A stretch of 64,000 nt of DNA from IMG/VR virus record IMGVR_UViG_2830687482_000006, positions 1-64,000 of that record; one strand, given 5' to 3'. Position 1 is the stretch's first letter. Each line of letters opens with the position of its first letter. Made by a program: the position numbers and the translations under genes. This DNA comes from a virus. Its lineage: Duplodnaviria; Caudoviricetes. The notes below the pieces were generated by a model. The model saw only the letters and a list, made by a program, of their open reading frames with translations, had not been told where the DNA came from and did not search any database. Shown here piece after piece: positions 59,598-63,993 of this stretch.

Positions 59598-59673
59598 TGG
59601 GGTGAAGTTCGGGTAACGATCCCGATACTCAGGCTTCACAAACCCGCGTGTATCCCTCAACACTTACAACACC
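59598..59673 (-). tRNA. tRNA-His(GTG), atypical
   Basis: loop TTGTGAA, G-1:C73, CCA; two U-U mismatches in acceptor; T-loop ATCGTTA. Confidence 0.8.
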
Positions 59674-59679
59674 ATAAAT

Positions 59680-59755
59680 TGGCACAGGCACAAAGACTCG
59701 AACTTTGCTCTTCGGTTTTGGAGACCGATACATCACCTCTAAATGCTTTACCTGC
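59680..59755 (-). tRNA. tRNA-Trp(CCA)
   Basis: cloverleaf, loop CTCCAAA, CCA end. Confidence 0.92.
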
Positions 59756-59841
59756 TCTACAGGTACCTCCTAAACCATCCACTCTAGTCATTTTACACTC
59801 ACAAGGAGGACCATGAGGGCATCGTGCTGGGTAGATATACT

Positions 59842-59916
59842 TGGTAGTTCCGGAGAGATTCGAACTCTCACCCCGGCCCTTATGAGGGGCTGGCTCTACC
59901 ATTGAGCTACGGAACT
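59842..59916 (-). tRNA. tRNA with CAT anticodon (elongator Met or Ile2)
   Basis: cloverleaf, loop CTCATAA, CCA. Confidence 0.88.
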
Positions 59917-60012
59917 ACAGATTTTCATAGACCTAATGAGCCAGTCAAAATGGGAGAACCAGAGCAGCGGGGAAATCCTCGAAGAGATTGGACATTCTAA
60001 TTCTCCTAAAAA

Positions 60013-60103
60013 TGGTCTGGAAGGTCAGATTCGAACTGACAAGGGATATTACTCCACCCGCTTCCAAAGCGGGACCGCTACCTGATTACGGGCCTACTCC
60101 CAG
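60013..60103 (-). tRNA. tRNA-Pro(TGG) with long variable arm (91 nt)
   Basis: C1:G72, A73, loop TTTGGAA, 16-nt variable region. Confidence 0.8.
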
Positions 60104-60110
60104 AGAAATT

Positions 60111-60187
60111 TGGCTGACCATGTAGGACTCGAACCTACCATATGCAGATTAACAGTCTGCCCCGTCCACCTTGTTCGGCTATGGCCA
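60111..60187 (-). tRNA. tRNA-Asn(GTT)
   Basis: cloverleaf, loop CTGTTAA. Confidence 0.92.
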
Positions 60188-60204
60188 TCATTGCTTGAAA
60201 ATTT

Positions 60205-60279
60205 TGGTAGCGGGAGAAGGACTCGAACCTTCGACCTTCAACTTATGAGGCTGACGAGCTGCCACTGCTCTATCCCGCT
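60205..60279 (-). tRNA. tRNA-Met(CAT), initiator-like body
   Basis: GAGCAG...GCTCG D-arm like fMet; A1:U72; lacks three G-C anticodon-stem pairs. Confidence 0.85.
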
Positions 60280-60415
60280 ACACCTAGTTTGATGCTTAAA
60301 CCCCACAGGGGGTTATGCCATCGTATCTGCCTCAGAGATACTCTATGATTTTTCACGTTTCTCTCCTTTCCAGATTGAGTTGATAACTTTCCTTTAGAGG
60401 AAATTTTTATATGTG

Positions 60416-61021
60416 TCAACTCTTCATTTCAGCCCACTTACCTTGTTCATCATAATCGAAAGTTTTTTTGAATGCTACACCAGATTTACGGTGAAACATA
60501 ACAATACCTTCTGGGTCCATGAAGCCGGGGGCGTGATAGCTTCCATTTTCCTTTAACATGGTCATTATGCCTTGAGCCGCACCATCCGGATTATTCAGAT
60601 ACTCATCTTGAATAAAAGTGTGAACAACCTCACAACATTGAGGACGATCTGGATTATCTTTCCAACGCAAGCTGTTGAAAAGTGCAAATCTTTTTTCTCC
60701 GCCAGTCAGCCCATAACCTCGCTTGATTCCAGAACCATACCACTCTCCGAAGTGTCGGCCTTCCCCTAGTTTGAAAAGCTCACTAACATTATGTGAAACA
60801 AATCGAGCAAAACCCATGTTATCCTTATCTAAGGATAACCAGCGGTTGCGCGAACCAGCAAATAGATAATAGCCCTCATGCTCTGTCAGAGCAGCTCCGG
60901 GTTCTGATTGATAATCAGCCTTAGGTCGCCAAGCAACCTGCGCATTAGTTCCATCAAGTTTTTCAGTTATCGTCCAACCCTGACTAAAACGAGTCAAACT
61001 AGAAAAGCGTTCAAAGTCCAT
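60416..61021 (-). CDS. RNA ligase (Rnl2-type adenylation domain)
   Basis: TEKLDGTNA motif I, FGEW, FALF, EGIVM, FKK. Confidence 0.85.
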   Translation of the reverse strand: MDFERFSSLTRFSQGWTITEKLDGTNAQVAWRPKADYQSEPGAALTEHEGYYLFAGSRNRWLSLDKDNMGFARFVSHNVSELFKLGEGRHFGEWYGSGIKRGYGLTGGEKRFALFNSLRWKDNPDRPQCCEVVHTFIQDEYLNNPDGAAQGIMTMLKENGSYHAPGFMDPEGIVMFHRKSGVAFKKTFDYDEQGKWAEMKS

Positions 61022-61235
61022 TGATAATCTCCATCAAGTCTATTGGGGTGTAATTGATTTGTTCCATGCTCACACAACGGTAGCGAGGGTCTGAATAATT
61101 TCCATAGAAGATTTCTCCTACTTTTGACTGTATCAATTTATCATGAGTATGCCCATGCACATTTAATTTCCATCTATTCATGGATTGAGGGTGAATAGGA
61201 ATATGAGACATGATCAACCCATGCTCCGGCTTCAC
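61011..61235 (-). pseudogene. truncated metallophosphoesterase (C-terminal half only)
   Basis: SHIPIH...NVHGHTH...CVSMEQINYTPI; N-terminal DxH/GD/GNH motifs absent; SD-linked ATG is out of frame. Confidence 0.65.
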
Positions 61236-61258
61236 GAGCCATATGTATCTCCTAAAAC

Positions 61259-61335
61259 TGGTTCCCCGCTCAGGCCTCGAACCTGTTTCTTGGGATTCAA
61301 AGTCCCAGATTTTAACCAAATTAAACTATCGGGGA
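61259..61335 (-). tRNA. tRNA-Gln(TTG)
   Basis: loop CTTTGAA, CCA. Confidence 0.88.
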
Positions 61336-61336
61336 A

Positions 61337-61410
61337 TGGAGCGGAATGCGGGACTCGAACCCGCTTCTTTAGCTTGGAAGGCTAAGGCACAACCCATATA
61401 CCAAATCCGC
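61337..61410 (-). tRNA. tRNA-Gly(TCC)
   Basis: loop CTTCCAA, U73, CCA. Confidence 0.92.
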
Positions 61411-61412
61411 AA

Positions 61413-61485
61413 TGATGGAGCATAACGGAGTTGAACCGTTCCTAGCTCCTTGCAGGGGAACCGTCGGCACCCCCTCGGATGACCT
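61413..61485 (-). pseudogene. degenerate tRNA-Ala(TGC)
   Basis: T arm intact, G3:U70 and A73 kept; C33, poor D arm, acceptor mismatches, TCA instead of CCA. Confidence 0.6.
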
Positions 61486-61700
61486 TAAACTTGTATGTAA
61501 TCAAATCTTCCTTTTACATTCTCGTTAAAGAAAATTCCAACTGAATTTGCTATGATCATAGATTCATAAATTGTTTTTGGAACCGCATCATATTCATAAA
61601 CAAGTCCTGAGTTGAACTCCACTTCCAAAGTCTCTGTAGACTCATCATATCCCACAGCAGCAATATTTGAACTTGAGACCGATATTCTATCCATTTTCAT
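61485..61700 (-). CDS. KTSC domain protein
   Basis: AGGAG SD; VSSSNIAAVGYD...LEVEFNSGLVYEY...SVGIFFN. Confidence 0.9.
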   Translation of the reverse strand: MKMDRISVSSSNIAAVGYDESTETLEVEFNSGLVYEYDAVPKTIYESMIIANSVGIFFNENVKGRFDYIQV

Positions 61701-61709
61701 TCTCCTAAA

Positions 61710-61784
61710 TGGTGCCGGATTGAGGACTCGAACCCCATTCTTTCGCTTACAAGGCGACTGCATCCCCACTATTGCTCATCCGGC
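61710..61784 (-). tRNA. tRNA-Thr(TGT)
   Basis: loop CTTGTAA, CCA. Confidence 0.92.
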
Positions 61785-61786
61785 GC

Positions 61787-61862
61787 TGGTGTAGAAGGTA
61801 GGACTCGAACCCACATCTGCGAGGCTTCAACTCGCCGCTAAGACCTCATCAGCTACTTCTAC
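61787..61862 (-). tRNA. tRNA-Phe(GAA)
   Basis: loop TTGAAGC (G37), CCA. Confidence 0.9.
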
Positions 61863-61863
61863 A

Positions 61864-61944
61864 TGGACCCCCAGACAGGATTCGAACCTGCATTTTCATC
61901 CAGTTATCCGTTTCTTGGTTCGTAGCCAAGGGGAATACTGAGGG
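61864..61944 (-). tRNA. D-armless tRNA-Arg(ACG)-like RNA
   Basis: 7-bp acceptor, CTTGG-CTACGAA-CCAAG anticodon arm, T arm, CCA; only 7 nt replace the D arm; 22-nt variable region. Confidence 0.8.
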
Positions 61945-61945
61945 A

Positions 61946-62020
61946 TGGTAGTCCGTGAGAATTATGCTATCCCGACCTTCCCCTTGTAAGGGGGACGCTC
62001 TACTTCTGAGCTAACGGACC
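61946..62020 (-). tRNA. tRNA-Val(TAC), non-canonical T loop
   Basis: loop CTTACAA; T-loop AGCATAA. Confidence 0.85.
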
Positions 62021-62022
62021 AT

Positions 62023-62098
62023 TGGTTGTTCCAGTAGGACTCGAACCTACGACACAGCGATTATCAGTCGCTTGCTCTACCAACTGAGCTATGGAACA
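62023..62098 (-). tRNA. tRNA-Ile(GAT)
   Basis: canonical cloverleaf. Confidence 0.95.
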
Positions 62099-62238
62099 TC
62101 ATTCTTAACGTCAAAATATCCTTTCAACCAAATCCATTTATTTTTCCCTCGTTTGAAAGGACAATCTGAATGAGAAAGACCATTATATGCCGCTGATCTT
62201 CCATTGTTTTCTACTGAACCTTCATTCCAATGTAGCAC
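62089..62238 (-). CDS. Rmf-like small protein (49 aa)
   Basis: AAGGAG SD 7 nt before GTG; NGRSAAYNGLSHSDCPFKRGKNKWIWLKGY. Confidence 0.7.
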   Translation of the reverse strand: MLHWNEGSVENNGRSAAYNGLSHSDCPFKRGKNKWIWLKGYFDVKNDVP

Positions 62239-62251
62239 ATCATATCTCCTT

Positions 62252-62326
62252 TGGTCGGCCCGAGGGGAATCGAACCCCCATTTCCTGATTGAAAGTCAAG
62301 CGTCTTAGCCATTAGACGACGGGTCG
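62252..62326 (-). tRNA. tRNA-Glu(TTC)
   Basis: loop CTTTCAA, CCA. Confidence 0.9.
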
Positions 62327-62360
62327 TCTACCAGCTTAACTCAATTCTCAATGTAGGAGT

Positions 62361-62486
62361 TGGGTTTAGACTAGTAGAGAGGTTCAGCCGAAGCGAATCT
62401 CTCGTTCACGCACGACAGCGAACCCACCTTGGCGGGTCGCTGTCGTTCCAATAAAGGTTGCGTTACTAGTCATAATGATCAACCCA
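62361..62486 (-). ncRNA. unclassified structured RNA candidate
   Basis: nested stems TGGGTT/AACCCA and GACTAGTA/TACTAGTC, a 10-bp hairpin and a cUUCGg-capped hairpin. Confidence 0.6.
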
Positions 62487-62512
62487 TAGCAAGGTAAATG
62501 ACCTATGTCAAG

Positions 62513-62570
62513 TGGAGCGACGAACAGGACTCGAACCTGCATGTTCTTGAGCCATTTCCGCCACCGTCGC
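62513..62570 (-). ncRNA. 58-nt mini-tRNA (acceptor + T arm, Leu-like relic)
   Basis: 7-bp acceptor, T arm and CCA; 23-nt middle TGGCGGAAATGGCTCAAGAACAT. Confidence 0.7.
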
Positions 62571-62582
62571 TAAAGAAAGAAG

Positions 62583-62659
62583 TGGTGAACGGCCCTAGAC
62601 TTGAACTCGGAACCCCCGACTTAAAAGGACGGTGCTCTAACCTATTGAGCTAGCCGTTC
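62583..62659 (-). tRNA. tRNA-Lys(TTT)
   Basis: loop CTTTTAA, CCA. Confidence 0.92.
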
Positions 62660-62971
62660 ACGAATAAAAGCACCTTTGGTGCTGAAAAAACCATAACGAT
62701 GCTTGGCTTGCTCTGCCCTAGCAAACGCACCGAGCAGAGTTTCTCTTGAATATGTTTCGGGACTCCATTGACCTTCTAGACCATAACAGGAACAATGTCC
62801 ACCTGAAACATAATAGTATGTGTCTCCATTTCTATACAGAACATCAGCACTACCATCGCAACCATAAGCTTCATGATCATACTGAGCATATAGAACCTCA
62901 TCTGGTTCTGGGTCGTTCATCGCAAATTCTCTTTGAACATCTCCCCAATTACTGAACAGATCATAATACAT
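62642..62971 (-). CDS. conserved phage hypothetical protein
   Basis: AGGAG SD; VSGGHCSCYGLEGQWSPE motif. Confidence 0.8.
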   Translation of the reverse strand: MYYDLFSNWGDVQREFAMNDPEPDEVLYAQYDHEAYGCDGSADVLYRNGDTYYYVSGGHCSCYGLEGQWSPETYSRETLLGAFARAEQAKHRYGFFSTKGAFIRERLAQ

Positions 62972-62988
62972 ACTATTCTCCTTAAAAA

Positions 62989-63066
62989 TGGTGCGCCTAG
63001 TAGGACTCGAACCTACAACCTACCGATTAGAAGTCGGCAACTCTATTCCAGTTGAGCTATAGGCGC
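62989..63066 (-). tRNA. tRNA-Arg(TCT)
   Basis: canonical cloverleaf, loop CTTCTAA. Confidence 0.95.
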
Positions 63067-63074
63067 AAAAACTA

Positions 63075-63315
63075 TGGCCCGTTCTGTTCCACGGTGGGCC
63101 AAGCCGGTGTCAAGAGCAGTTAAGCTGCGAGACGAAGTGCCATTTCTGGCTGGTTATCATTGACAGTTATCAATGTTGATCTTTTAAGGTAATCACACCT
63201 ACAACCTCACACTAGCTTATCCCGTCAGTCGATACCCTTTCACCCCCATTATGGTGGAGGTGGGCGCACTCGAAGCGCCGTCCTGTCCGTATTCACTAGT
63301 GGTCAGCGATTGTTC
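63075..63315 (-). ncRNA. ssrA: circularly permuted two-piece tmRNA
   Basis: T arm + CACCTCC-A-CCA (ends 63252), TAAT spacer, GGGGGTG 5' end (63247) with G3:U70; tag VNDNQPEMALRLAA* at 63120-63164; outer ends approximate. Confidence 0.92.
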
Positions 63316-63434
63316 CTCAAAACTTCCTGCATAAACTTCTTAAAGTCGGCATCACTTCCGGTTCCTTTGCCTAAATTAGCAGCGGTGCAAACAAATTGCA
63401 CATTTCCTTCTCCGCTGTCAACAGATAGTTTCAC
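63303..63434 (-). pseudogene. HNH-type endonuclease C-terminal remnant
   Basis: KLSVDSGEGNVQFVCTAANLGK resembles the SxDRID...GNVxxVCxxxNxxK tail of phage HNH proteins. Confidence 0.45.
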
Positions 63435-63993
63435 TCACCATATCCGTGAAGTTTAGATCAACCCCTAAAATCCACTTATGTGAAGGATACCTTGGAACCC
63501 AACGAGAAAACCTATGAACACTGCTAGCCAGCGCCAGTGGTGATTCTGATCTTATCAGGCGAAAAACCTTATCATCATGATCTTCCAAATAGCCCTTGCT
63601 TCTTTCCAAGTATTTTCCATTAAAAGAAATTTGACAAAGACCATAATCGAATCTCTGAGTTATATATTGAATACTCCAATTCACAAAAATTAGTTGGATT
63701 GGGGGAAGTCCTTCAACATCCATATTAGTCACTAATATAATTTCTCTCATAGATTCAGGATACCAAGCATCGGTATCATTTTGCTCAGGTTCTTTTCCCC
63801 CTAATAATTTGTTAAGGGCTGTAGCTTCACTTTCTGAGCCACAAGCTACAAAGAAATCTAAATCTTTTACATCTAGGCCATGATCTAAATCTCTTAAAGA
63901 CCCTCCAGCAAGAACTACTTTAGAATGAATAGTTTGAAACTTAAGTAGAAGATCGACCCATTCTTTTGGAATGTCTTTTTCGGTAATCATCAC
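63418..63993 (-). CDS. nucleotidyltransferase (CCA-adding/poly(A) polymerase head domain)
   Basis: LAGGSLRD...KDLDFF, RFDYGLCQI. Confidence 0.85.
   Translation of the reverse strand: MMITEKDIPKEWVDLLLKFQTIHSKVVLAGGSLRDLDHGLDVKDLDFFVACGSESEATALNKLLGGKEPEQNDTDAWYPESMREIILVTNMDVEGLPPIQLIFVNWSIQYITQRFDYGLCQISFNGKYLERSKGYLEDHDDKVFRLIRSESPLALASSVHRFSRWVPRYPSHKWILGVDLNFTDMVSETIC

What the first reader, a model, noticed from the sequence alone, without database searches (positions are those of the whole stretch)
59598..63993. Self-contained translation rescue island: tRNAs, tmRNA, ligase, nucleotidyltransferase, Rmf-like and KTSC proteins
Seen: in 4.4 kb, 16 tRNAs, two degenerate tRNA-like genes, a permuted tmRNA, an RNA ligase, a CCA/poly(A)-type transferase, KTSC and Rmf-like ORFs and a structured RNA. 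Known: phage tRNAs and ligases counter anticodon nucleases. Inference: an integrated system that replaces, repairs and re-tails tRNAs, rescues stalled ribosomes and controls hibernation. This is my best candidate for an undescribed system because of its non-canonical RNAs.
Basis: partly seen in the sequence, partly recalled or inferred. Interest (0 to 1): 0.75.

Follow-up and report, generated by a model that had tools for sequence, protein, structure and literature searches.

The report
Phage tRNA and tmRNA gene array
This is a real but fairly ordinary phage "translation toolkit": about fifteen tRNA genes and a two-piece tmRNA, mixed with a few accessory genes that close relatives lack, so it is a patchwork rather than one integrated new system.

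Summary
All features lie on the minus strand of a 75-kb phage contig, upstream of the helicase gene.

- **RNAs:** 12 ARAGORN tRNAs, 3 more above Rfam's cut-off, 2-3 weak tRNA-like stretches, a permuted tmRNA (100.7 bits) and a strongly folding 126-nt RNA.
- **Proteins:** a 201-aa RNA ligase, a 191-aa nucleotidyltransferase (NTase) with the class II CCA-adding head fold, a KTSC protein and an Rmf/CrpP-family peptide.

The "integrated, undescribed system" reading is only partly supported.

- Two relatives (helicase about 71% identical) share only NTase, tmRNA and tRNAs (2 and 11-12). They lack the ligase, KTSC, Rmf-like and orf109 genes.
- The phosphoesterase next to the ligase is a C-terminal stump, and an HNH gene is also a remnant. 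No SmpB is present.
- The peptide is not RMF proper.
- The NTase belongs to the Gad2 (anti-Gabija) family, which rarely sits near tRNAs.

tRNA supply plus RNA repair, and phage two-piece tmRNAs, are already described (PMC7824862, PMC9004378). This scan noted similar islands on other DNA.

New leads:

- A small protein family with an invariant HCSCYGLEGQW motif recurs inside phage tRNA arrays.
- Gad2-type NTase and tmRNA lie close together in two lineages.

The odd tRNA-like RNAs could not be tested.

The parts
63418..63993 (-). 191-aa nucleotidyltransferase: head and neck of a class II CCA-adding/poly(A) polymerase, Pfam Gad2 family (PF26128)
   Evidence: The profile matches CCA-adding enzymes at E about 1e-5. 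The AlphaFold2 model has pLDDT 91, and the top Foldseek hits are CCA-adding enzymes and PAP with TMq about 0.6. PF26128 comes from precomputed annotation and the Atlas. G30, G31, R34, D35, D44 and D46 are invariant.
63303..63434 (-). 43-aa ORF: C-terminal remnant of an HNH endonuclease gene
   Evidence: It is 71% identical to the C-terminus of a 184-aa HNH-like ORF that lies between NTase and tmRNA in relative L103.
63120..63314 (-). Two-piece (circularly permuted) tmRNA gene. Order: acceptor piece, CCA, 4-nt spacer TAAT, coding piece. Tag (A)VNDNQPEMALRLAA.
   Evidence: RF04321 scores 100.7 bits against a cut-off of 47. ARAGORN gives the tag. G3-U70 and the encoded CCA were read from the sequence.
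62989..63066 (-). tRNA-Arg(TCT)
   Evidence: 67.2 bits.
62642..62971 (-). 109-aa protein of unknown function with an invariant HCSCYGLEGQW motif. Its stop lies inside tRNA-Lys.
   Evidence: phrog_8792, E 1e-22. Alignment A4. The family is enriched inside phage tRNA arrays.
62583..62659 (-). tRNA-Lys(TTT)
62513..62570 (-). 58-nt tRNA-like RNA: 7-bp acceptor stem, T arm and CCA, with no anticodon arm
   Evidence: Read from the sequence. Only a weak antisense tRNA-like Rfam hit. Fold z = -1.75. Function untested.
62361..62486 (-). 126-nt strongly structured RNA of unknown kind
   Evidence: MFE -57.3 kcal/mol, z = -7.15, none of 200 shuffles as stable. No Rfam match even at E 10. No homologue in phage records.
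62252..62326 (-). tRNA-Glu(TTC)
62089..62238 (-). 49-aa Rmf/CrpP-family peptide (not RMF proper)
   Evidence: NF041886 scores 28.6 bits against a cut-off of 28. RMF models score 14.6-17.7 bits, below cut-offs of 27.9-40.
62023..62098 (-). tRNA-Ile(GAT)
   Evidence: 71.7 bits.
61949..62020 (-). tRNA-Val(TAC) with a non-standard T loop
   Evidence: Rfam 47.3 bits; not called by ARAGORN; alignment shown.
61867..61944 (-). tRNA-Arg(ACG)-like: the D arm is replaced by 4 nt and the variable region carries an insert of about 20 nt
   Evidence: Rfam 29.5 bits against a cut-off of 29. The Infernal alignment shows the D-arm deletion and the insert.
61787..61862 (-). tRNA-Phe(GAA)
61710..61784 (-). tRNA-Thr(TGT)
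61485..61700 (-). 71-aa KTSC-domain protein
   Evidence: PF13619, 80.5 bits. A 36%-identical homologue lies upstream of the helicase in Achromobacter phage JWF.
61416..61485 (-). Weak tRNA-like stretch (T arm plus a short acceptor-like stem)
   Evidence: Found only by relaxed ARAGORN. Fold. Not an Rfam hit.
61337..61410 (-). tRNA-Gly(TCC)
61259..61335 (-). tRNA-Gln(TTG)
61011..61244 (-). Remnant of a metallophosphoesterase gene: only the C-terminal 40% (GHTH motif). The N-terminal catalytic motifs are absent.
   Evidence: phrog_547, positions 135-197 of 245. tblastn with full-length homologues aligns only residues 96-155 of 166, starting just after tRNA-Gln. No N-terminal piece was found anywhere on the contig.
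60416..61021 (-). 201-aa ATP-dependent RNA ligase: a stand-alone nucleotidyltransferase domain of the Rnl2/Rnl5 kind
   Evidence: phrog_548, E 1e-21; PF09414. K21, D23, G24 and N26 and the later motifs are invariant. The model has pLDDT 91, and the top Foldseek hits are NgrRnl, REL1 and T4 Rnl2.
60205..60279 (-). tRNA with anticodon CAT (Met or Ile2)
   Evidence: 68.3 bits.
60111..60187 (-). tRNA-Asn(GTT)
60018..60100 (-). tRNA-Pro(TGG)-like with enlarged D and variable regions
   Evidence: Rfam 30.7 bits. Relaxed ARAGORN reads it differently.
59842..59916 (-). tRNA with anticodon CAT (Met or Ile2)
   Evidence: 63.2 bits.
59680..59755 (-). tRNA-Trp(CCA)
59598..59672 (-). Weak tRNA-His(GTG)-like stretch with mismatches in the acceptor stem
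   Evidence: Found only by relaxed ARAGORN. Fold z = -0.12. No Rfam hit.

Best explanation
The region is the tRNA/tmRNA gene array of a roughly 75-kb tailed phage, distantly related to Achromobacter phage JWF. It sits in a fast-changing stretch of the early/replication region, between a DNA ligase and the helicase gene.

**Shown.**
- The array holds about 15 tRNA genes, most with an encoded CCA, and a complete two-piece tmRNA.
- It also holds an intact minimal RNA ligase and a minimal class II nucleotidyltransferase.
- Relatives share only NTase, tmRNA and a variable number of tRNAs.
- Two genes in the region are decay remnants.

**Inferred.**
- The array is transcribed as long precursors that host RNase P and 3' exonucleases cut up.
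- The tRNAs top up decoding of the A/U-ending codons the phage prefers, and may replace host tRNAs lost to shut-off or defence nucleases.
- The tmRNA is charged by host AlaRS and works with host SmpB. It keeps ribosomes free during infection and tags stalled products with a degradation tag ending in LAA.
- The ligase reseals nicked RNA, such as cut anticodon loops, but it needs end-healing from elsewhere.
- The other small genes (KTSC, Rmf/CrpP, the HCSCYGLEGQW protein) are separately acquired accessory genes, each placed behind a tRNA with its own ribosome-binding site.
- The NTase is either a 3'-end repair enzyme or, as its family name suggests, a counter-defence enzyme. I lean slightly towards counter-defence.
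For: **The parts are real.** tRNAs and tmRNA.

**Phage context.** The neighbours are DNA polymerase A, a 5'-3' exonuclease, ribonucleotide reductase, a helicase and a DNA ligase.

**Contig against the rest of the bin.**
- The contig has 42.3% GC; the rest of the bin has 48.9%.
- The bin's SmpB is 99% identical to that of cyanobacterial MAGs.
- The bin's own tmRNA is one-piece.

**Only part of the region is conserved.**
- L009/L104 have NTase, tmRNA, a porin-like gene, 11-12 tRNAs and the helicase.
- L103 has NTase, HNH, tmRNA, a porin-like gene, HNH genes, 2 tRNAs and the helicase.
- Neither has the ligase, KTSC, Rmf-like or orf109 genes.
- The tRNAs themselves are not orthologous between relatives.

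**Decay.** The phosphoesterase is a stump that begins right after tRNA-Gln. The 43-aa ORF is an HNH remnant.

**Codon fit.** Codons cognate to the phage tRNAs are enriched in phage ORFs relative to the bin: mean log2 ratio 0.39 against -0.16, Mann-Whitney p = 0.01. AGA is 4.1-fold and GGA 2.1-fold enriched.

**Cassette look.** The junction '(T/G)TTT..AGGAGA, about 8 nt, ATG' follows four tRNA 3' ends. These are 4 of the 7 matches in the 64-kb window.

**Enzymes.** Ligase family and fold. NTase family and fold.

**Already described.** PMC7824862 section 3.4.9, PMC10264068 and PMC9004378.
Against: - NTase and a permuted tmRNA stay close together in all three close relatives. They are also within 3.5 kb in the distant relatives G004/G005 and in the unrelated fragment G002/G003. 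This hints at a functional tie that a pure patchwork model does not predict.
- The HCSCYGLEGQW protein family really is enriched inside tRNA arrays, so at least one small ORF may be functionally linked to tRNAs.
- The host is unknown, so the codon comparison uses a genome that may not be the host.
- No expression data exist, so processing and function of every RNA are inferred.
Confidence: 0.7

Rival explanations
1. One reading: the whole 4.4 kb is one co-selected system. It replaces tRNAs, repairs cut ones with the ligase, re-tails them with the NTase, rescues ribosomes with the tmRNA and controls ribosome hibernation with the Rmf-like peptide.
For: - All the parts lie on one strand within 4.4 kb.
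- The ligase and NTase folds fit RNA repair.
- Such kits exist in jumbo phages (PMC7824862).
- NTase and tmRNA are syntenic in relatives.
Against: - Relatives lack the ligase, KTSC, Rmf-like and orf109 genes.
- The phosphoesterase is truncated, and no kinase or SmpB was found.
- The peptide fails the RMF cut-offs.
- The NTase lacks the tRNA-binding body and tail domains.
- The NTase gene is split by a frameshift in L009/L104, where the tmRNA and tRNAs persist.
- The ligase and NTase families are mostly found away from tRNAs.
Confidence: 0.1
2. The NTase is a dedicated partner of the tmRNA and tRNAs. It is a minimal CCA-adding or A-adding enzyme that rebuilds 3' ends, including the tmRNA acceptor piece after the 3-4-nt spacer is trimmed, or after host nucleases clip tRNA tails.
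For: - It has the class II head fold and the GGxxRD..DxD motif.
- It sits immediately upstream of the tmRNA in the window, L009 and L103.
- The pair is within 3.5 kb in G004/G005 and in G002/G003.
- Host defences that cut tRNA tails exist (PMC12851939).
Against: - There is no body or tail domain to hold a tRNA.
- The nucleotide-selecting motif is not kept: RFDFG stands where CCA-adding enzymes have ERRD.
- 72 of 80 family loci have no tRNA or tmRNA within 5 kb.
- The family is named after Gad2, an anti-Gabija protein.
- CCA is already encoded in the tmRNA and in most of the tRNAs.
- The gene is split in L009/L104.
Confidence: 0.2
3. The non-canonical RNAs are working molecules, not decayed genes. 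These are the D-armless Arg-ACG, the 58-nt anticodon-less RNA, the weak His-like and Ala-like stretches and the 126-nt RNA. They could serve as decoys for tRNA-cutting nucleases or as nuclease-proof tRNAs.
For: - Acceptor stems, T arms and CCA ends are intact.
- The 126-nt RNA folds far better than shuffled sequence, z = -7.15.
- The Arg-ACG-like and 58-nt RNAs share a CGGAWAA-UGG element and T arm (the shared T arm is also seen).
- Phage tRNA mimics are known (YrlA-type), and this scan noted some in other genomes.
Against: - No counterpart exists in the relatives, so no covariation test was possible.
- Three of them score at or below detection thresholds.
- The fold z-scores of the small ones are unremarkable.
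- The same region holds two clearly decayed protein genes.
Confidence: 0.2

Closest known systems
Phage tRNA supply plus RNA-repair gene sets (T4 Pnkp/Rnl1 against PrrC; jumbo-phage sets in Iyer et al. 2021, PMC7824862 section 3.4.9)
   Same: tRNA genes occur together with an ATP-dependent RNA ligase, a phosphoesterase and a CCA-adding-type nucleotidyltransferase. The proposed purpose is the same: keeping translation going under attack.
   Different: The set here is incomplete. The phosphoesterase is a stump, no polynucleotide kinase was found, and the ligase and NTase are single-domain minimal forms. The phage is about 75 kb, not a jumbo phage. The genes are not conserved as a set in relatives.
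Phage-encoded two-piece tmRNAs (OM43 phage Melnitz and 53 ARAGORN-predicted cases among 402 tmRNA-bearing phages, PMC9004378)
   Same: A permuted ssrA sits on a lytic-type phage, with no phage SmpB and a tag of the proteobacterial ANDN...AA style.
   Different: - Rfam reported no riboswitch in the window.
- The spacer between the pieces is very short: 4 nt here and 3 nt in L103, against about 88 nt in L009.
- The position of the usual Ala resume codon holds GUC (Val) here and UCA (Ser) in L103.
- A Gad2-family NTase lies next to the gene.
Gad2, Gabija anti-defence protein 2 (bioRxiv 10.1101/2023.05.01.538930; Pfam PF26128)
   Same: The same Pfam family by precomputed annotation. Both are phage-borne nucleotidyltransferases.
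   Different: Gad2 proper is about 400 aa and comes from Bacillus SPbeta-like phages. This protein is 191 aa, head and neck only. Anti-Gabija activity is untested here, and the mechanism of Gad2 itself is unknown.
Class II CCA-adding enzymes and poly(A) polymerase I (PDB 3h39, 1miv, 3aql, 1ou5)
   Same: The head-domain fold and the catalytic GGxxRD...DxD motif.
   Different: It is half the length. It lacks the body and tail domains that bind tRNA, and the nucleotide-selecting motif is not conserved.
Nick-sealing RNA ligases: Naegleria NgrRnl (Rnl5, PDB 5cot) and T4 Rnl2 (PDB 2hvq)
   Same: The nucleotidyltransferase-domain fold, the lysine motif KxDGxN and the later motifs.
   Different: It has neither the N-terminal OB domain of Rnl5 nor the C-terminal domain of Rnl2. 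It belongs to a large family (more than 2000 clusters) of about 200-aa proteins, annotated 'RNA ligase' in many phage records.
Achromobacter phage JWF (NC_029075) and relatives, the closest cultured phages
   Same: Similar genome size. The helicase is 34% identical. A KTSC gene and a tRNA lie upstream of the helicase.
   Different: JWF has one tRNA and no NTase or tmRNA in the 11-kb region examined.

Membership tests
Two-piece (permuted) tmRNA | Gene order: acceptor piece with T arm, CCA, intervening spacer, then the coding piece starting with the 5' acceptor strand | tested here: met
   The Rfam RF04321 alignment covers model positions 1-213 at 100.7 bits. The sequence reads ...CACCTCCACCA-TAAT-GGGGGTG....
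Two-piece (permuted) tmRNA | G3-U70 pair in the acceptor stem (the alanine identity element) | tested here: met
   GGGGGUG pairs with CACCUCC, giving G3-U70. The same holds in L009 and L103.
Two-piece (permuted) tmRNA | Short tag reading frame ending in a hydrophobic degradation signal and a stop codon | tested here: met
   The ARAGORN tag is VNDNQPEMALRLAA*. The resume position holds GUC rather than the usual GCN.
Two-piece (permuted) tmRNA | SmpB partner available | tested here: not met
   No SmpB lies on the phage contig; the only SmpB is on contig C49 of the bin. The host would have to supply it, as reported for the Melnitz phage tmRNA.
Two-piece (permuted) tmRNA | Processing into two paired RNAs, and charging with alanine | not testable with these tools
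   Needs RNA from infected cells.
Class II CCA-adding enzyme / poly(A) polymerase | Head domain with the catalytic GGxxRD...DxD motif and the Pol-beta-like fold | tested here: met
   G30, G31, R34, D35, D44 and D46 are invariant. The profile matches at E 8e-6. Foldseek gives probability 1.00 and TMq about 0.6.
Class II CCA-adding enzyme / poly(A) polymerase | Body and tail domains that bind the tRNA | tested here: not met
   The protein is 191 aa against 390-420 aa. Matches cover only the first 160-190 residues or so of the enzymes. TMt is about 0.3.
Class II CCA-adding enzyme / poly(A) polymerase | Nucleotide-selecting motif D (EDxxR...RRD) | tested here: inconclusive
   The family has RFDFGlCQI aligned to ERRDLTIN. 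The Asp is kept, but the upstream template residues are not conserved.
Class II CCA-adding enzyme / poly(A) polymerase | Passes the Pfam PF01743 cut-off | tested here: not met
   No Pfam match at E up to 0.1 in the local library.
Gad2 (PF26128) | Match to the Pfam family model | tested here: inconclusive
   PF26128.2 is the precomputed domain for this protein and its relatives, and 39-76% of members of the nearest Atlas clusters carry it. The model is absent from the local Pfam copy, so I could not rescore it.
Gad2 (PF26128) | Blocks Gabija defence | not testable with these tools
   Needs a phage-host assay. Gad2 proper is 400 aa.
ATP-dependent RNA ligase (Rnl2/Rnl5-like, PF09414) | Lysine adenylylation motif KxDGxN and nucleotidyltransferase motifs III-V | tested here: met
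   E20, K21, D23, G24 and N26, then E93, W94 and G96, then K185 and K186 are invariant across 37 sequences.
ATP-dependent RNA ligase (Rnl2/Rnl5-like, PF09414) | Family model match and fold | tested here: met
   - PF09414 scores 26.6 bits locally against a cut-off of 27.
- PF09414.16 is the precomputed domain.
- phrog_548 matches at E 1e-21.
- The top Foldseek hit is NgrRnl, E 6e-6, TMq 0.6.
ATP-dependent RNA ligase (Rnl2/Rnl5-like, PF09414) | Accessory nucleic-acid-binding domain (the OB domain of Rnl5 or the C-terminal domain of Rnl2) | tested here: not met
   At 201 aa it is the nucleotidyltransferase domain alone. About 200 aa is the norm for the family.
T4-type heal-and-seal tRNA repair | An end-healing phosphatase and a polynucleotide kinase alongside the ligase | tested here: not met
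   The phosphoesterase lacks its N-terminal catalytic half. No kinase appeared among the neighbours scanned. The whole contig was not scanned exhaustively.
Ribosome modulation factor (RMF) | Passes the RMF family cut-offs | tested here: not met
   PF04957 scores 14.6 bits against a cut-off of 27.9. NF011162 scores 17.7 against 40.
Rmf/CrpP family | Passes the NF041886 cut-off | tested here: met
   28.6 bits against a cut-off of 28, E 7.5e-7. The pass is borderline.
KTSC domain | Passes the PF13619 cut-off | tested here: met
   80.5 bits against a cut-off of 25.

The most novel reading that the evidence does not exclude
Gad2-family minimal nucleotidyltransferases act on the 3' ends of tmRNA or tRNA-like RNAs. 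The recurring NTase-tmRNA pairing seen here would then mark a phage-specific route for maturing or protecting the tmRNA, and it would give the first clue to what Gad2-type enzymes modify. In parallel, the HCSCYGLEGQW protein and the anticodon-less or D-armless tRNA-like RNAs would be working parts of a tRNA-centred counter-defence.
Probability: 0.1. Interest if true: 0.75.

Novelty: new member of a known kind. Interest (0 to 1): 0.35.

Why it matters
As a whole the region adds one more example to a known class. Phages carry tRNAs, sometimes a tmRNA and RNA-repair enzymes to keep translation running while the host shuts down or attacks its own tRNAs.

Its value lies in three testable leads.

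- A Gad2-family nucleotidyltransferase stays next to a two-piece tmRNA across a phage clade, and the pair recurs in an unrelated large phage. This could point to the unknown substrate of Gad2-type counter-defence enzymes.
- A small protein family with an invariant HCSCYGLEGQW motif turns up again and again inside phage tRNA arrays and has no known function.
- The array holds several tRNA-like RNAs that break the usual cloverleaf rules. They could be decaying genes or nuclease-proof mimics.

None of these changes current understanding until it is tested.

Tried and rejected
- **Near and distant DNA searches against phage records.** Queries were the whole region, the tmRNA and the 126-nt RNA. 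No match.
- **Ligase as a guide to related tRNA islands.** The five closest viral loci have no tRNA or tmRNA. Annotated phage hits show varied neighbours: an unrelated NTase in CcrSC and an HD-type hydrolase in RHph_X66.
- **Orthologues of the odd tRNAs and the 126-nt RNA in relatives.** None found, so no covariation test was possible and I built no covariance model.
- **Rfam at E up to 10 on the 126-nt RNA.** Nothing.
- **Promoter and terminator scan.** Consensus matches only, nothing decisive.
- **Host link.** No spacer-like or other DNA match between the phage contig and the rest of the bin. The bin is a cyanobacterium with a one-piece tmRNA, while the phage's tmRNA tag and its protein relatives look proteobacterial. 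I treat the host as unresolved and reject the idea that the bin is proven to be the host.
- **A split phosphoesterase whose N-terminal half lies elsewhere.** Rejected; no hit on the contig.
- **'The ligase is truncated'.** Rejected; about 200 aa is the family norm.

Full report
**Setting.** The window is the first 64 kb of a 75,082-bp contig, the largest contig of a 580-contig metagenome bin. The contig has 42.3% GC, while the rest of the bin averages 48.9% with a standard deviation of 2.1. It carries phage replication and structural genes:

- a helicase (phrog_62), family A DNA polymerase, 5'-3' exonuclease and class II ribonucleotide reductase;
- an ATP-dependent DNA ligase and a GP88-like protein.

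The rest of the bin is a cyanobacterium. Its SmpB is 99% identical to that of Acaryochloridaceae/Thermosynechococcaceae MAGs. Its own tmRNA is one-piece, with tag ANNIVPFARKTVLATA. No spacer-like or other DNA match links the phage contig to the bin.

The phage's closest cultured relatives by helicase are Achromobacter phage JWF (34%), Xylophilus phage Lumi, Pseudoalteromonas and Acinetobacter phages and Caulobacter phage Seuss. Its RNA ligase is closest to those of Rhizobium and Caulobacter phages. I therefore treat the host as unresolved and probably proteobacterial.

- ARAGORN tRNAs.
- Rfam adds Val-TAC (47.3 bits), Arg-ACG (29.5 bits) and Pro-TGG (30.7 bits), all against a cut-off of 29.
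- Relaxed ARAGORN adds weak His-like and Ala-like stretches.
- No tRNA or other Rfam family occurs in the 11 kb beyond the window end, so the array is bounded at about 59.6-63.3 kb.

The Infernal alignment confirms two oddities:

- The Arg-ACG gene has 4 nt where the D arm should be, and an insert of about 20 nt in the variable region.
- The Val gene has a non-standard T loop.

A 58-nt stretch has a 7-bp acceptor stem, a T arm and CCA but no anticodon arm. It shares a T arm and a CGGAWAA-UGG element with the Arg-ACG gene. The 126-nt RNA folds at -57.3 kcal/mol, z = -7.15. It matches no Rfam family even at E 10.

**The tmRNA.**

- It scores 100.7 bits on the permuted model.
- Its acceptor piece ends in CACCTCCACCA.
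- Four bases (TAAT) separate it from GGGGGTG, the 5' end of the coding piece. This gives G3-U70.
- The tag is (A)VNDNQPEMALRLAA.

**Proteins.**

*RNA ligase.* The 201-aa ligase is a full-length member of a family of more than 2000 clusters of about 200-aa PF09414 proteins. The lysine motif and later motifs are invariant. Its model has pLDDT 91 and best matches the nucleotidyltransferase domain of Naegleria RNA ligase, then REL1 and T4 Rnl2. It has no accessory domain.

*NTase.* The 191-aa NTase belongs to a large family, with 658 representative clusters at E up to 0.001. GG..RD and DxD are invariant. The family profile hits CCA-adding enzymes at E about 1e-5. The model has pLDDT 91 and superposes on the head and neck of CCA-adding enzymes and poly(A) polymerase. 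It lacks the tRNA-binding body and tail. Precomputed annotation and the ESM Atlas place it in Pfam PF26128, named after Gad2. Gad2 is a 400-aa phage nucleotidyltransferase that blocks Gabija by an unknown mechanism.

*Small ORFs and remnants.*

- The 49-aa ORF just passes the Rmf/CrpP family cut-off but fails those for RMF proper.
- KTSC is a clear match.
- The ORF next to the ligase is only the C-terminal 40% of a metallophosphoesterase. Homology begins just after tRNA-Gln, and no N-terminal part exists on the contig.
- The 43-aa ORF between the NTase and the tmRNA is the tail of an HNH endonuclease that is intact in relative L103.
- No SmpB is on the contig.

**Is it one system? Close relatives.** I compared three relatives.

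- L009 is an IMG/VR contig of 74 kb. L104 is 99.95% identical to L009. L103 comes from a 12-kb metagenome contig. Their helicases are 71-72% identical to the window's.
- L009/L104 read: DNA ligase, NTase (split by a frameshift), permuted tmRNA (alpha-type model, 100.6 bits), a porin-like gene, 11-12 tRNAs, helicase.
- L103 reads: NTase, HNH, permuted tmRNA (68 bits), porin-like gene, two HNH-like genes, 2 tRNAs, helicase.
- None of them has the RNA ligase, the phosphoesterase, KTSC, the Rmf-like gene or orf109. The whole 74-kb contig lacks the ligase.
- The tRNAs are not orthologous between relatives.

So only NTase, tmRNA and 'some tRNAs' are stable. The rest is strain-specific, in a region that also holds homing-endonuclease genes and two gene remnants.

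**Is it one system? Beyond the clade.**

- The five closest ligase loci have no tRNA nearby.
- Of 80 NTase-family loci, 8 have any tRNA or tmRNA within 5 kb.
- Of 18 KTSC loci, 2 have a single tRNA.

Four tRNA 3' ends in the array are followed by the same ribosome-binding junction and an ATG. This suggests tRNA-plus-ORF cassettes that were shuffled in.

**What the tRNAs are for.** Codons cognate to the phage tRNAs are used more in phage ORFs than in the bin's ORFs. The mean log2 ratio is 0.39 against -0.16, p = 0.01. AGA is 4.1-fold, GGA 2.1-fold and CAA 1.5-fold enriched. This fits codon supplementation for a more AT-rich phage. The caveat is that the bin may not be the host. ATA is 3.6-fold enriched, so one of the two CAT tRNAs could be tRNA-Ile2; I did not resolve this. 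Replacement of tRNAs lost to host nucleases (PMC10264068) is equally possible and cannot be tested without the host.

**Two things that go beyond a patchwork.**

*First, the NTase and a permuted tmRNA stay close together.*

- They are adjacent in the window and in L009. In L103 an HNH gene lies between them.
- In two complete 83-kb phages with 38-39% helicase identity the order is NTase, helicase, tmRNA. The tmRNA hits score 59.2 bits (above the cut-off) and 35.3 bits (below it).
- In an unrelated large-phage fragment they lie 2.9 kb apart, and the tmRNA scores 108.1 bits.

That makes two independent lineages. It is suggestive, given that only about 2% of phage genomes carry a tmRNA (PMC9004378), but it is not proof. 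The frameshifted NTase in L009/L104 argues against strict dependence.

*Second, the 109-aa ORF belongs to a family with an invariant HCSCYGLEGQW block.*

- 22 of 80 viral loci have a tRNA within 4 kb and 13 have three or more.
- The gene is co-oriented with the tRNAs in 21 of 22 loci, and it often lies 27-103 nt after a tRNA.
- The tRNA-associated loci fall into 12 sequence clusters, and about 8 of these include a locus with three or more tRNAs.
- For comparison, 1 of 103 control loci has three or more tRNAs (Fisher p = 1e-4, not corrected for relatedness).
- The family has no Pfam or PDB match.

**tmRNA details.**

- The relatives' tags are ANDNDMPVMKMAIAA (L009) and (S)NDNDNQQETALRIAA (L103).
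- The position of the usual Ala resume codon is GCA in L009, GUC here and UCA in L103, while the C-terminal degradation signal is kept.
- The spacer between the pieces is 4 nt here, 3 nt in L103 and about 88 nt in L009.
- CCA is encoded in all three.

I could not find published spacer-length statistics in the papers held, so I do not claim that the short spacer is unusual.

**Comparison with what is known.**

- Phage tRNA supply together with RNA ligases, phosphoesterases, kinases and CCA-adding enzymes is described for jumbo phages in PMC7824862, section 3.4.9. It follows the T4 Pnkp/Rnl1 paradigm.
- Phage tmRNAs, including 53 predicted two-piece ones, are counted in PMC9004378. 79 phage tmRNA sequences are in the current tmRNA database (PMC11915505).
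- This scan has itself noted comparable phage tRNA/tmRNA islands and RNA-repair blocks on other DNA.

The region is therefore a new member of a known kind. It is incomplete as a repair kit and is not conserved as a unit.

**Verdict.**

- Observation: confirmed.
- Interpretation: partly supported.
- Best explanation: a phage tRNA/tmRNA array in a plastic early-region hotspot, with separately acquired accessory genes (confidence 0.7).

The NTase-tmRNA pairing, the HCSCYGLEGQW family and the rule-breaking tRNA-like RNAs are worth follow-up. None of them is established.

Noticed in passing
window 62642-62971 (-); loci L107-L186: A small phage protein family with an invariant HCSCYGLEGQW motif and no known function lies inside or beside tRNA arrays. 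22 of 80 viral loci have a tRNA within 4 kb and 13 have three or more. The tRNA-associated loci fall into 12 sequence clusters. The gene is co-oriented with the tRNAs and often lies 27-103 nt after one.
   Followed up: partly
window 62977-62986, 61701-61709, 61248-61256, 60002-60010 (-): Four tRNA 3' ends are followed by the same junction, (T/G)TTT..A(A)GGAGA, then about 8 nt and an ATG. These are 4 of only 7 matches in the 64-kb window (2.2 expected by chance). Two of the ATGs open real genes (orf109, KTSC). The other two open tiny ORFs of 16 and 22 codons.
   Followed up: partly
G004 (L038/L287/L290), G005 (L033/L288/L289), G002/G003 (L095/L098/L285/L286): A Gad2-family NTase and a permuted tmRNA lie within 3.5 kb on one strand in two complete 83-kb phages that are distant relatives (helicase 38-39%). 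The same is true of an unrelated large-phage fragment, whose tmRNA scores 108 bits and has tag EANKANANDAYFGETRLAA.
   Followed up: partly
L009 6123-6748 and L104 4164-4735: The NTase gene of the closest 74-kb relative is split into two overlapping ORFs by a frameshift in two separately deposited, 99.95%-identical contigs. Its tmRNA and 11-12 tRNAs are intact.
   Followed up: partly
L009 7219-7737; L103 6130-6657: Both relatives carry a porin-like outer-membrane beta-barrel gene (PF13505) between the tmRNA and the tRNAs. It is absent from the window phage and points to a Gram-negative host.
   Followed up: no
contig C559 against the rest of G000; C37:2063-2454; C49:10948-11376: The phage contig is the largest contig of a cyanobacterial bin. 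It differs by 6.6 GC points, shares no DNA with the bin, and carries a two-piece tmRNA while the bin's own tmRNA is one-piece. It was probably binned by chance or by co-occurrence.
   Followed up: partly
window 62642-62659 and 62089-62098 (-): Two ORFs (orf109 and the Rmf/CrpP peptide) end on the TAG of the conserved TAGCTCA in the D arm of the next tRNA. Protein-coding and tRNA genes therefore overlap by 10-18 nt.
   Followed up: no
L293 4546-4779 (Achromobacter phage JWF gp067): JWF has a KTSC-domain gene 36% identical to the window's, and one tRNA-Lys, upstream of its helicase. KTSC may be an old resident of this variable region.
   Followed up: partly
L020 2065-3576 (Caulobacter phage CcrSC): In the giant Caulobacter phages a homologous 200-aa RNA ligase sits directly after a 280-aa 'nucleotidyltransferase' unrelated in sequence to the window's NTase. 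It may be the ligase-associated RlaP type described in PMC7824862.
   Followed up: no
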